A DNA stretch of 61,815 bases. Origin: Octopus sinensis. Its lineage: Eukaryota. Shown here piece after piece: positions 782 to 4,031 of the stretch. The stretch's first letter is position 1. Every line of letters begins with the position of its first letter. Made by a program: the position numbers. Where the stretch lies: contig NW_021832246.1 of assembly GCF_006345805.1 (NCBI RefSeq), forward strand, positions 1 through 61,815. The letters run 5' to 3'.

Positions 782-3339
782 GTTTGTGCATGTATATTTA
801 TGGATGGGTATATGTCTATAGATTATATAGGCGCAGGAGTGGCTGTGTGGTAAGTAGCTTGCTAACAGGTTGCTTCTACGCATGTGCAAGTCAATGTGGT
901 GCTGGACACCGAAGATGTAAGACGTGTTTATGAAAGCCGTCTTAAATTGAAGACTTTTGAATACTCAGCCGTAAGGTAACAATTTTGCGGGGCTAGTGGG
1001 GACCTGTTGTATGTTGCAAATTATTTTTACAAGCAAGAAGTCCTCACTAGACTCTGGTCTACCTGAGGCTGAGTGAAAATATTCACTTAATTGTGAAAAT
1101 TATTGGTTTGGAGGGCGTATCCTGCCAAACTTTCGTTTGAAAATAGTGTCAAATTTTGGCCGTAACGGTGAATTGAGAATTATTCTTGTGGGCGTATCTC
1201 GCAAGAAAACTATAAGAATAAGCCACTTGGATTACCTTTTGAACCAATTTTTGTGGAAGTTGTGTTCCAGTTGCGGCGTTCCAGGTTCAACTCAGGCTGG
1301 GAGTACCGTAAGGCCAGAAGATTTTTGCTGTGTTTTGCTGTTTATTGACTTTCTTTTGAACTTTATTTAACTCACCTTTTTATTTTTTTGGTTTATTGCG
1401 ACTTTCCGTTGATTTCTTCCCTTCTGTTGTGATTTCTCCTTTTAGTTTTTTCAAAAAATCTATCGAATTTTATTTGGACTTTTGAACTTTTTTCTTCTCG
1501 CTTTTTAAGTTTATTTTGAATATATTTCAAAAAAAAAACATGGCAATGAAAAATGACAAAATTTTGGAATAGGAGATTATACCGCCTAAAAAGTGGTTAA
1601 AAGACCGTGAAGATAGGACGGTGGTGTTGAGAACCTACTCCAAGACACTCGACACCATCGCCCTATTCGAAAAGACGGCAATTGAAAAGGAGTTGGCAGA
1701 GTATTTGCCAACAAATAAATTCATTTCCAGGAGTGTCAGATATGCAACGGTGTAGTTGCTATTTGACACCCCTGAAGAGGCTTGCAAATTTGCTAGTAAA
1801 CCCCTGGAGGGTAAGGAAATTTTATTTCTGCCCACGTACCAAAGAAAGAGACTGACGAAAGCTTGGATCTGCGGGCTGCCACCCGGCATAATACCAGAGT
1901 GGATAGAGGAGACTATCCGCCGGGGTCTGGGTAGCAGCGGAACTAAGCTTCTTAATGTGAAAGTTCTTCCTGCGGCTGTTTGGGTTGGGTCAAAAGCAAT
2001 TTTGACCCTTTGGACCCAATCAGCCAATCTGGTTCTTCCAGATTGTTTGAAAATGGCCGGGTGTAGGTACCCGGTGATACTTTAGGGTCGCCCCCCTAGG
2101 TGTCATCGGTGCTTGGAGTCCGGCCATATAAAGAAGAACTGTCCTCGGGAACAAAATAGGATCCCGGAGCAGTTAAGTGAAACCCCTGTAGAAGAGCGAA
2201 TTAAAACGGCCGAGGAAGCGGAGGACTCCTCAAACAGAGGCCGAAAGAGGAAGGTGAGCAACAATGGGTGCTCACCAAAGGATACTAGAGATGAGGAGGG
2301 AAAGGTGAATCTTCCGGCCACGGAGGAGACGCACCCTCCCTCAGTTGAAAAGAAAAAAAAAAGAGGAAGAGAAACGGGACGTTACCGGCAGTCGGTGACA
2401 TAGTACCTGAATGTCCCGGAACTACGTCGGTTGGGGTTGTGCCACCGACAGGAGAAGAAACACCGTTGGCGGGAACTGTGCCGCCAACGAAAGAATTGAA
2501 TATCCCGCACCCGAGCAAAAACGATGTATTGATCCCCTTCCATAGAGGCGGAGAGATTGAAAAGGTGATGGAAAAGCACCATAAGGGAGCACCTTTAGCC
2601 TTCACACAGGACCCCGAATGGCCTCCGCAGGTAGCTGTGGAGGCCGTGGCGTTCGACGTGACGCTTGGGCTGAAGGAGCTCAATGAGGATTATAGCTTGG
2701 TCCCGGGCGACGCTAACACGGAACGCGATTACATTCTGAGGGAGGCGTGGTGGATGGTGGAGGGTGCGGGCACAATTTATTTTGAGGACGAGTCATAAAT
2801 TGTGATACGACTTGAGGGGCCCCGACTTAGAGCTGCGCATTCCTAAGGGAAGTGTAACCCAGGTCTGGGAGGAGGGGCTTTGTGTATTGTATTTATATCA
2901 TATGTAATTATTGAACTATGTTGTTGTTAGTAATGGACTGTTAAGTCCAAAAATTGAAAAGTTGTAAAAATTGTAAGAGGTTTAATACCTCGTTTTGTGT
3001 TTGTTTTTAAAAGAACAATGTTTTAGAGGAGCAGAAGTCGGCGGGCGCTTTTTGTCTTCTCCCATCCTCATCATCTTTCTTTCATTACCATTCATTTCAT
3101 TAATGTCCCCGTCCAGCCCGCAAAGCTAACTTACTCTATGTACTGCCTTTATGGCAAATGTTATGAAACAAAGTAGCTTGCTTCCCAACCACATTGGTTC
3201 CGGGTTCAGTCCCACTGCGTGGTATCTTGGGCAAGTGTATTTCACTATAGCCTCGGGCCGACTAATGCCTTGTGAGTGGATCTGGTAGACGAAAACTGAA
3301 AGAAGCCCGTCGTATATATGTATACGTATATGTATATAT

Positions 3340-3380
<41 letters not shown>

Positions 3381-4031
3381 CATGTGTTTGTGTGTCTGTG
3401 TTTGTCTCTCACCACCAAACATCACTTAACAACCGATGTTGGTGTGTTTACGTCCCCGAAACTTAGCGGTTCGGCCAAACAGACCGAGAGAATAATTACT
3501 AGGCTTACAAAGAATAAGTCCTGGGGCAATTTGTTCGACTAAAGGCAGTACTCCAGCATGGCTTCAGTCAAATGACAGAAACAAGTAAAGTTATCTATTA
3601 ATAAATATGAGAATATATATACATTTACATATACATGCATATATACATACATACATACATACATACATACTACATACATACATACATACATACATATAGA
3701 CATATAAATATAAGTTATGTAGGTATAAGTTAGAGGTGTTTAAAACCTCCAAAGGATGGTTAAATCCAAAGGTGCTCCTGGTAATTACCTGAGTAGGTAC
3801 ATTCCTTGGTAAATGGCATACGGTAGCAGGCAATTCAGAGGTTAAACCTTAGTTTAAATTATATGCAAGAAGAAAATGGAAATAGGGTTACATATATACA
3901 TTATATACCAAAAGTAAATGGAGGAAAAATAACAGGAACGACCAACTTCTTCCTGTTATTTCTCTTCCATTTTCTTCGTCCATATAAATATATATATATA
4001 TATACTTATACATATACATACATTTATATGC

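What the first reader, a model, noticed from the sequence alone, without database searches (positions are those of the whole stretch)
830..3590. A retroelement that specifically targets the tRNA-like head of a SINE (same nucleotide, same 12-bp TSD, twice in one window)
Seen: the 2.3-kb element at 864-3170 splits an S1 SINE and duplicates AAGTAGCTTGCT. A homologous element at 44555-46772 splits another S1 SINE at exactly the same base, in the same orientation, with the same TSD. S1 heads at 11866 and 49428 show the empty site. Outer flanks are unrelated and the two host SINEs look more diverged than the element cores, which argues for independent insertions. Established: Tx1-clade LINEs evolve sequence specificity for multicopy targets (U2 snRNA, 5S rRNA, tRNA arrays, microsatellites). 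Inference: this family uses a high-copy SINE as a safe landing pad and separates its Pol III A-box from its B-box, so it is a parasite of a parasite that inactivates SINE copies.
Basis: partly seen in the sequence, partly recalled or inferred. Interest (0 to 1): 0.92.

Follow-up and report, generated by a model that had tools for sequence, protein, structure and literature searches.

The report
SINE-targeting gag-only retroelement in octopus
Two copies of a 2.3-kb mobile element that encodes only an RNA-binding protein sit at exactly the same base of two different, older SINE repeats in an octopus-like genome; this suggests a retroelement that homes in on another mobile element, a habit already known from related elements with other targets.

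Summary
Elements at 864-3170 and 44555-46772 (+ strand) split two copies of one SINE family after the same base. Each is flanked by the same 12-bp duplication, AAGTAGCTTGCT. A third SINE copy at 11859-12631 shows the uninterrupted site.

The element has a 5'UTR, one decayed ~420-codon ORF and a 3'UTR. The ORF encodes two RRM-like domains, a CCHC knuckle and an orphan C-terminal domain. There is no RT, endonuclease, poly(A), TIR or LTR. This is a non-autonomous LINE derivative that keeps only ORF1.

Independent insertion is favoured over copying of one composite:
- The host SINEs differ by 19.9%, the elements by 8.8% (Fisher p=8e-8).
- The host SINE tails are not each other's closest relatives.
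- Flanks outside the SINEs are unrelated.
- The element ORFs differ with dN/dS 0.44 (p=5e-4).

The sample is only two copies, both in one window. Neither the source genome nor Repbase/Dfam could be searched. Clade (Tx1 or other) is untestable here.

LINEs that target other transposons are already documented (PMC4494074). This is a plausible new target class, not a new principle. Interest is moderate.

The parts
830..863 (+). Host SINE A, left part of the head. It holds the A-box-like motif (840-850) and the left copy of the duplicated 12-mer (852-863).
   Evidence: It is 32 of 34 bases identical to the same part of host SINE B.
864..3170 (+). Element copy c1 (2307 bp).
   Evidence: It is bounded by the two 12-mer copies and has no TIR or LTR.
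864..1539 (+). c1 5'UTR. The first ~200-370 bp cannot be aligned with c2. Bases 1232-1539 are 86% identical to c2, with many indels.
1540..2798 (+). c1 ORF, decayed. In-frame TAG stops lie at 1570, 1753 and 2083, and there is a frameshift in the A-rich tract near 2350-2400. It encodes two RRM-like domains, a CCHC knuckle (about 2098-2145) and an orphan C-terminal domain.
2799..3170 (+). c1 3'UTR. Bases 2792-2899 are absent from c2. Two invariant hairpins lie at 2934-2949 and 2977-2991. There is no poly(A).
   Evidence: Identity to c2 is 91.6%.
3171..3182 (+). Right copy of the 12-bp target-site duplication at c1.
3183..3592 (+). Host SINE A, remainder: B-box-like motif (3203-3213), body, internal (AT)n/(GT)n microsatellite (about 3303-3399) and tail (3400-3592).
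44521..44554 (+). Host SINE B, left part of the head, with the left 12-mer copy at 44543-44554.
44555..46772 (+). Element copy c2 (2218 bp), rearranged. Its parts are the ORF N-terminus (45178-45376), an inverted segment (45393-45908), the rest of the ORF (45907-46444) and a 3'UTR (46445-46772) with a tandem duplication (46456-46535 and 46530-46610).
46773..46784 (+). Right copy of the 12-bp target-site duplication at c2.
46785..47213 (+). Host SINE B, remainder: body, microsatellite and tail. An AT-rich repeat, AAAATAAATAA, lies just outside both ends of the whole SINE B and may be the SINE's own duplication.
11859..12631 (+). Unoccupied SINE C of the same family. The empty site is at 11881-11892, and its target 17-mer has 3 mismatches.

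Best explanation
The inserts are two decayed copies of a non-autonomous non-LTR (LINE-type) retroelement family of about 2.2-2.3 kb. The family keeps a 5'UTR, one ORF1-type gene and a structured 3'UTR, and has no ORF2. The gene encodes two RRM-like domains, a CCHC zinc knuckle and a family-specific C-terminal domain.

Inferred mechanism: the element's RNA is copied into DNA by target-primed reverse transcription. The endonuclease and reverse transcriptase would come in trans from an unseen autonomous relative.
- The endonuclease would nick the bottom strand between T851 and A852 of the SINE head (GGT|AAGTAG).
- It would nick the top strand 12 bases further on (TTGCT|TCCC).
- This gives the fixed 12-bp duplication and a fixed orientation.

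The recognition sequence seems to lie in the roughly 34 bases to the left of and including the duplicated 12-mer. The downstream SINE sequence seems not to matter.

Shown: the two junctions, the duplications, the ORF architecture, the age difference between hosts and inserts, and purifying selection on the ORF.
Inferred: the RNA intermediate, the nick positions, the trans helper, and specificity across the whole family.
For: 1. Same base, same 12-bp duplication and same orientation in 2 of 2 copies.

2. The target 17-mer GTGGTAAGTAGCTTGCT has 3 sites in the window. The 2 perfect sites are both occupied, and the 1 site with 3 mismatches is empty.

3. The hosts are older than the inserts.
- Host SINEs: 61 mismatches of 307 (19.9%).
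- Elements: 136 of 1552 (8.8%), Fisher p=8e-8.
- Element non-coding parts only: 54 of 489 (11.0%), p=9e-4.

4. Among six SINE tails, hosts A and B are 75.0% identical to each other. A is 80.9% and B is 82.6% identical to the unoccupied copy E. The hosts are therefore not sister copies.

5. Flanks outside the SINEs are unrelated.

6. The two ORFs differ with dN/dS 0.44 over 344 codons (Fisher p=5e-4). The orphan C-terminal part gives pN/pS 0.40. Part of the divergence therefore arose in functional source lineages and not in dead duplicates.

7. The left head plus both duplication copies are 44 of 46 identical. This is unlikely at the SINE background identity of 80% (P=0.003) but fits the element's own identity of 91% (P=0.22). 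The target was therefore close to consensus when it was hit.

8. The ORF is of LINE ORF1 type.
- The AlphaFold model has mean pLDDT 80.8.
- The best PDB matches are two-RRM proteins (NONO, SFPQ, hnRNP A1 UP1, Hrp1; E 8e-6 to 1e-4).
- A CCHC knuckle follows.
- 'RRM immediately upstream of CCHC' defines type I ORF1 (PMC4120745 passages).

9. There are no TIRs or LTRs. The sense strand holds 26 (c1) and 31 (c2) runs of four or more T, so a Pol III transcript of the composite is implausible.

10. Relatives exist in Octopus sinensis at 63% identity over 95% of the query. There are 75 more distant relatives at E<=0.001.
Against: - There are only two copies. Both lie in one 62-kb window, 43 kb apart, in the same orientation.
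- No genome-wide tally of flanks was possible.
- Neither copy has RT, endonuclease or poly(A), so the retro mechanism is inferred from the ORF type, the duplication and the lack of terminal repeats.
- The first ~200-370 bp of the two copies do not align. The common 5' end rests on AACA plus short motifs.
- c2 is heavily rearranged.
- Occupancy of 2 of 3 heads in one window is high for a SINE family that should be very abundant. This hints at a local effect or at a biased sample.
- The near-identity of the left head could also arise if that piece was copied together with the element.
- No autonomous partner was found. 0 of 10 distant relatives scanned carry RT or endonuclease domains. No longer fused form turned up. 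The only L1/Tx1-like ORF2 fragment in the window has an unrelated 3'UTR.
Confidence: 0.6

Rival explanations
1. One SINE-plus-insert composite arose once and was then copied at the DNA level into a second, nearby SINE. The route would be ectopic gene conversion or homology-directed repair using the SINE flanks.
For: Both copies lie 43 kb apart on one strand in the same orientation. The 34-bp left head and both 12-mers are 44 of 46 identical, while the rest of the SINE is 80% identical. A conversion tract could produce this pattern. c2 shows a history of DNA rearrangement.
Against: - Identity collapses immediately after the right 12-mer. The next 22 bases carry several mismatches and a one-base indel. 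A conversion tract would have to end exactly at the duplication.
- The ORFs differ with dN/dS 0.44, which is not expected for dead DNA copies.
- The 5' 200-370 bp differ completely.
- The elements themselves are 8.8% diverged.
Confidence: 0.15
2. The long form (head + 2.3 kb + body + tail) is itself the mobile unit. Either the composite was retrotransposed as a whole, or the SINE is a deletion derivative of the long element that arose by loss between the two 12-bp repeats.
For: Host SINE B, insert included, is flanked by its own AT-rich repeat. This would fit movement of the composite as well as movement of the SINE alone. SINEs often share ends with a longer partner element (general knowledge).
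Against: - The SINE parts are about twice as diverged as the insert, and the host tails are not sister copies.
- A different SINE family at 49428 carries the same kind of head uninterrupted, so the contiguous head is the older state.
- 26 and 31 T-runs of four or more bases, plus the 2.3-kb gap between the box-like motifs, argue against Pol III transcription of the composite.
Confidence: 0.08
3. Insertion is independent and retro-type, but the site is chosen by tethering to proteins bound on the SINE head. The Pol III factors are the obvious candidates. Tethering could run through the element's own ORF1-type protein and would not need a sequence-specific endonuclease.
For: The site lies between the A-box-like and B-box-like motifs. 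The ORF carries an orphan C-terminal domain under purifying selection, with pN/pS 0.40. Elements that use Pol III factors to pick sites near tRNA genes are known (recalled: Ty3, Dictyostelium TRE elements; not checked here).
Against: Tethered elements, as recalled, insert at variable distances outside the gene and not at one internal nucleotide. Here the nucleotide and the duplication length are identical in 2 of 2 copies. The empty copy differs in the target sequence itself.
Confidence: 0.1
4. Coincidence: a non-specific element landed twice at the same SINE base.
For: None beyond the small sample.
Against: The upper bound for a second random hit at the same position and orientation is about 1.5e-4, even if every SINE counted as a target.
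Confidence: 0.01

Closest known systems
Tx1L LINE inside the Tx1D piggyBac-type transposon of Xenopus; Tx1-Mar LINEs inside Mariner-N4_AMi; Tx1-8_Crp and Tx1-4_AMi in LTR elements; Tx1-9_AMi in Harbinger elements of crocodilians (PMC4494074, passages and section 15 read)
   Same: A non-LTR retroelement uses a defined place inside another, multicopy transposable element as its landing site. It is a parasite of a parasite. RRM/zf-CCHC ORF1 variants are said to fit the Tx1 clade (PMC5203782 passages).
   Different: The target here is the head of a SINE, which was not among the targets listed in the passages read. The copies here have no ORF2, so clade membership cannot be tested. Here the site is exact in 2 of 2 copies. 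The crocodilian families are described as showing preferences for regions.
R1 and R2 rDNA-specific LINEs (R1Bm endonuclease cuts both strands of its 28S target specifically: PMC1919474, abstract seen in listing)
   Same: Exact insertion site, fixed duplication length, no poly(A) and reliance on a specific 3'UTR. Type I ORF1 (RRM plus CCHC) is listed for the R1 clade (PMC4120745 passages).
   Different: The target is a dispersed SINE and not a tandem rRNA gene. No endonuclease is available to compare. No ribozyme of the kind that R2 uses was detected.
HeT-A of Drosophila telomeres and HAL1 of mammals
   Same: Non-LTR elements that carry only the first ORF and depend on a reverse transcriptase supplied in trans. 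HeT-A is also confined to one kind of site.
   Different: Different clades, hosts and targets. Here the ORF1-only state is seen in two decayed copies, and its persistence is inferred from dN/dS 0.44.
Dada DNA transposons that insert into tRNA and snRNA genes (PMC8869645, abstract seen in listing)
   Same: They use small multicopy Pol III-type sequences as a safe target.
   Different: Dada are DNA transposons. The element here has no terminal inverted repeats, carries a LINE-type ORF1 and makes a 12-bp duplication.

Membership tests
Non-LTR (LINE-type) retrotransposon | Encodes a reverse transcriptase (ORF2) | tested here: not met
   All ORFs of 40 aa or more were listed. Pfam on 4 ORF pieces gave only zf-CCHC. 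The element can at most be a non-autonomous derivative.
Non-LTR (LINE-type) retrotransposon | ORF1 of a recognised LINE type (type I: RRM immediately upstream of a CCHC knuckle; PMC4120745) | tested here: met
   The model has two RRM-like folds followed by CCHC (pLDDT 80.8). Foldseek gave two-RRM proteins at E 8e-6 to 1e-4. zf-CCHC scored 16.2 and 18.1 bits, below the 20.8 cut-off, in 2 of 4 pieces. The Cys and His columns are nearly invariant in 30 relatives.
Non-LTR (LINE-type) retrotransposon | Target-site duplication, with no terminal inverted or long terminal repeats | tested here: met
   A 12-bp duplication flanks both copies. The best end-to-end local alignments score no more than 16.
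Tx1 clade | RT and APE endonuclease group with Tx1 in a phylogeny | not testable with these tools
   Neither copy has RT or endonuclease. The source genome could not be searched for a full-length relative.
Target-specific LINE (criterion used in PMC4494074: one kind of sequence in more than 20% of flanks) | The same flanking sequence at a large share of genomic copies | tested here: inconclusive
   2 of 2 copies in the window share the flank. A genome-wide tally was not possible.
tRNA-derived SINE (the host) | The head is recognisably tRNA-like | tested here: inconclusive
   ARAGORN found 0 tRNAs in the window. There were no Rfam matches at gathering score and no tRNA match to the intact head at E<=10. 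A-box-like and B-box-like motifs are visible by eye, judged against consensus sequences that are recalled.
ORF1-only non-autonomous LINE lineage (HeT-A/HAL1-like organisation) | A single ORF1-type gene, maintained by selection, with no ORF2 | tested here: met
   Both copies share the same junction between ORF end and 3'UTR. dN/dS between the copies is 0.44, p=5e-4. The sample is only 2 copies.
R2-like co-transcribed element | Self-cleaving ribozyme at the 5' junction | tested here: not met
   No ribozyme family matched at E<=5 in 800-3650 or 44500-45200. Novel ribozymes are not excluded.

The most novel reading that the evidence does not exclude
A self-sustaining retroelement lineage that carries only a gag/ORF1-type gene and uses a SINE head as its exclusive landing site. 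Its own protein, through the orphan C-terminal domain that is under selection, would guide the RNA-protein particle to the SINE head. The upstream 34-bp head would be renewed at each insertion by pairing of co-transcribed head sequence. This would explain why the left head looks as young as the insert.
Probability: 0.1. Interest if true: 0.75.

Novelty: new variant of a known kind. Interest (0 to 1): 0.5.

Why it matters
If the specificity holds genome-wide, it adds a SINE head to the list of safe-harbour targets of site-specific LINE-type elements. That list already holds rRNA, snRNA and tRNA genes, microsatellites, DNA transposons and LTR elements.

The target is short, about 34-46 bp, and very abundant. 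That makes the recognition rules of the unseen endonuclease easy to map. Thousands of natural target variants, occupied and empty, would be available in a single genome.

It would also be a second example, beside HeT-A (recalled), of an ORF1-only lineage that persists under selection.

It does not change the general picture. Target-specific LINEs that nest in other transposons are already documented.

Tried and rejected
Ribozyme at the 5' junction. Rfam gave nothing at gathering score for the whole window. At E<=5 for 800-3650 and 44500-45200 it gave only microsatellite and miRNA-type noise.

tRNA identity of the head. ARAGORN found 0 tRNAs. Rfam at E<=10 on 11840-12030 gave one chance CRISPR-repeat match.

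Autonomous partner.
- 0 of 10 distant relatives scanned have RT or endonuclease domains. 6 of 10 have a CCHC-type knuckle at E<=0.01, and 3 of 10 score above the curated cut-off.
- A search for longer proteins with the C-terminal half found none among 1406 candidates.
- The near-length search found none among 317 candidates.
- The Atlas gave no score of 0.9 or more for the C-terminal part.
- BLASTP of that part against the other 77 stored proteins gave nothing below E=0.46.

The L1/Tx1-like ORF2 fragment in the window (zf-RVT). Its 3'UTR is not similar to the element's (p 0.5 and 0.33).

A shared 3' tail between the element and the SINE. The result is weak and inconsistent. The p-values are 0.01 to 0.1 for 4 of 5 tails with c1 and 0.75 for the fifth. 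For c2 they are 0.1 to 0.8.

3'UTR hairpins. All 11 predicted pairs are invariant in 3 sequences, so there is no covariation evidence.

Literature. Searches (word searches; a 22-base stretch of the SINE head) turned up no paper describing a LINE that targets a SINE head. This covers only the held library.

Not available or not used.
- Repbase and Dfam were not available.
- Supplements, including those of PMC4494074 that list Tx1 targets, were closed.
- Genome contigs holds only bacteria and archaea and was not used.
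Full report
WHAT IS THERE

The window is AT-rich and full of microsatellites. Its best protein match is to Octopus sinensis, so I treat it as an octopus-like genome and go no further on its origin.

Each has:
- a head with A-box-like and B-box-like motifs,
- a body,
- an internal (AT)n/(GT)n microsatellite,
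- a ~190-bp tail.

Each copy is split after ...GGTAAGTAGCTTGCT by a 2.2-2.3-kb insert: c1 at 864-3170 and c2 at 44555-46772. The insert is followed by a second copy of AAGTAGCTTGCT. The 12-mer occurs perfectly at exactly these four places. With up to 1 mismatch there are 6 matches, against 0.20 expected.

A third full SINE copy (C, 11859-12631) has the uninterrupted site. The head at 49428 on the minus strand belongs to another SINE family that shares only the head.

ANATOMY OF THE INSERT

c1 has a 676-bp 5'UTR, one ORF from the ATG at 1540 to the TAA at 2796-2798, and a 372-bp 3'UTR without poly(A). The ORF is broken by three in-frame TAG codons and one frameshift in an A-rich tract.

c2 keeps the frame across that tract. 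This shows that the ORF is a single gene of ~420 codons. c2 also has several rearrangements:
- an internal inversion (45393-45908 is c1 1908-2418 inverted),
- a 169-bp deletion,
- a 183-bp inverted duplication whose two arms are 98.9% identical,
- a ~75-bp tandem duplication in the 3'UTR.

Neither copy has terminal inverted or direct repeats.

The protein:
- Pfam sees only a sub-threshold zinc knuckle.
- A profile search found 75 relatives at E<=0.001.
- With 29 of those 75 plus P0001 as the alignment, the O. sinensis relative folds with mean pLDDT 80.8 into two RRM-like domains followed by the knuckle.
- The best PDB matches are two-RRM proteins.
- The ESM Atlas pointed the same way, to RRM, zf-CCHC and ZCCHC3-type clusters with scores of 0.89-0.93. 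These are leads only.

'RRM immediately upstream of CCHC' is the definition of type I ORF1 of LINEs. It is reported for the I, Jockey, R1, Tad1, plant L1 and L2 clades (PMC4120745 passages). Such variants are also said to fit Tx1 (PMC5203782 passages).

The last ~130 residues have no detectable relative. They are nevertheless coding, with pN/pS 0.40.

There is no RT or endonuclease anywhere in either copy.

ONE EVENT OR TWO?

Five lines of evidence favour two events.

1. Age. Hosts A and B differ at 61 of 307 compared positions (19.9%, duplicated 12-mer excluded). The elements differ at 136 of 1552 (8.8%; Fisher p=8e-8). Their non-coding parts alone differ at 54 of 489 (11.0%; p=9e-4). The SINE figure comes from pairwise alignments. 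The multiple alignment of the tails gives an even lower A-B identity of 75.0%.

2. Relationship of the hosts. In that six-tail alignment, A and B are no closer to each other than to unoccupied copies. A-E is 80.9%, B-E is 82.6% and D-E is 84.2%.

3. Flanks. Outside the SINEs the flanks are unrelated.

4. Selection. The two ORFs differ with 31.5 synonymous changes on 233.5 sites and 49.5 non-synonymous changes on 792.5 sites. This gives dN/dS 0.44, p=5e-4. Dead duplicates should drift towards 1, so part of the difference arose in functional source elements.

5. The 5' ends. The first 200-370 bp differ beyond alignment. Only rearranged short blocks are shared. This fits two source subfamilies.

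Evidence against two events:
- There are only two copies, and they lie 43 kb apart.
- The 34-bp left head plus both 12-mers are 44 of 46 identical. This is too similar for the 80% SINE background (P=0.003).

Two readings explain that last point. In the first, the target had to be near consensus when it was hit. The 44 of 46 fits the element's own 91% identity (P=0.22), and the only empty head has 3 mismatches in the 17-mer. In the second, the left head was copied with the element.

A plain gene-conversion tract is unlikely, because similarity collapses in the very first bases after the right 12-mer.

Movement of the whole composite by Pol III is unlikely for two reasons. The insert holds 26 and 31 T-runs of four or more bases. 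The SINE parts are older than the insert.

HOW IT PROBABLY WORKS

A LINE-type particle would nick the bottom strand at GGT|AAG. It would prime reverse transcription of the element's 3'UTR from that end. The 3'UTR holds two invariant hairpins, with no covariation evidence. The top strand would be cut 12 bases downstream.

The identical duplication length in both copies argues that both nicks are sequence-directed. R1Bm shows this behaviour (PMC1919474 abstract). The enzymes must come from an unseen partner.

Recently active LINE clades reported for O. vulgaris are RTE, Dong-R4, CR1, L1-Tx1, Hero and R2 (PMC13282606 passages). The ORF1 type argues for a two-ORF, APE-bearing clade, but the clade stays open.

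COMPARISON AND NOVELTY

LINEs that nest specifically in other transposons are in print (PMC4494074):
- Tx1L in Tx1D,
- Tx1-Mar in a Mariner family,
- other Tx1 families in LTR and Harbinger elements.

My searches found no paper on a SINE head as target. Repbase, Dfam and the supplements could not be seen.

I rate this a new variant of a known kind. The evidence that two independent insertions share one site is good. The evidence for family-wide specificity is untested.

Noticed in passing
window 23795-25160 (also 23540-23590): A 5'-truncated L1/Tx1-like LINE 3' end lies inside a (TCTA)n microsatellite, with the repeat running up to both of its ends. Its ORF2 C-terminus carries zf-RVT (E 3e-8). 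A second short fragment of the same sequence sits in the same kind of repeat 300 bp upstream. It looks like a microsatellite-targeting LINE. Its 3'UTR is unrelated to the element studied here.
   Followed up: partly
window 36383-36625 (minus strand): SINE copy D keeps the head only up to ...GGTAAGTAG. It then jumps straight into the internal microsatellite and tail. This is a ~135-bp internal deletion whose left breakpoint falls inside the 12-bp target. It may be a scar of an aborted or lost insertion, or it may be chance.
   Followed up: no
window 45393-45575 and 45907-46088: The two arms of the inverted duplication inside c2 are 98.9% identical, while c1 and c2 differ by ~9%. The inversion-duplication is therefore much younger than the insertion, or the arms were homogenised.
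   Followed up: no
window 12037-12270: A ~230-bp repeat sits inside the internal microsatellite of the unoccupied SINE C. It has nine further full or partial matches in the window, for example 47525-47754, 43554-43783 and 51349-51518. It is another abundant short element.
   Followed up: partly
window 867-877 and 44574-44585: Both elements carry, within their first ~30 bases, a stretch that resembles the SINE sequence across the top-strand nick (AG.TTGCTTC). A second shared motif lies beside it, but in swapped order in the two copies. The significance is unclear and it may be chance.
   Followed up: partly
window 3130-3182 against SINE tails (e.g. 3550-3592): The last ~40 bases of c1 plus the start of the duplicated target resemble the 3' end of the SINE tail (...CAAATG..GAAACAAGTA). 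The shuffle p is 0.01-0.1 for 4 of 5 tails with c1 and not significant for c2. If real, the SINE and the element might share a reverse transcriptase.
   Followed up: partly
protein P0005 (O. sinensis gene model found): This gene model, named 'K02A2.6-like', joins the first ~46 residues of this element's ORF (85% identical) to an integrase-type (PF00665) sequence. It looks like an annotation chimera of two mobile elements.
   Followed up: no
window 3303-3399, 46898-47010, 12022-12447: All three full copies of the SINE carry an (AT)n/(GT)n microsatellite between body and tail. The microsatellite therefore seems to be part of the SINE family, or to grow at a fixed internal site.
   Followed up: no
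window 32094-32462: A short ORF reads like a reverse-transcriptase fragment by eye. It had no Pfam match at E<=0.01.
   Followed up: partly
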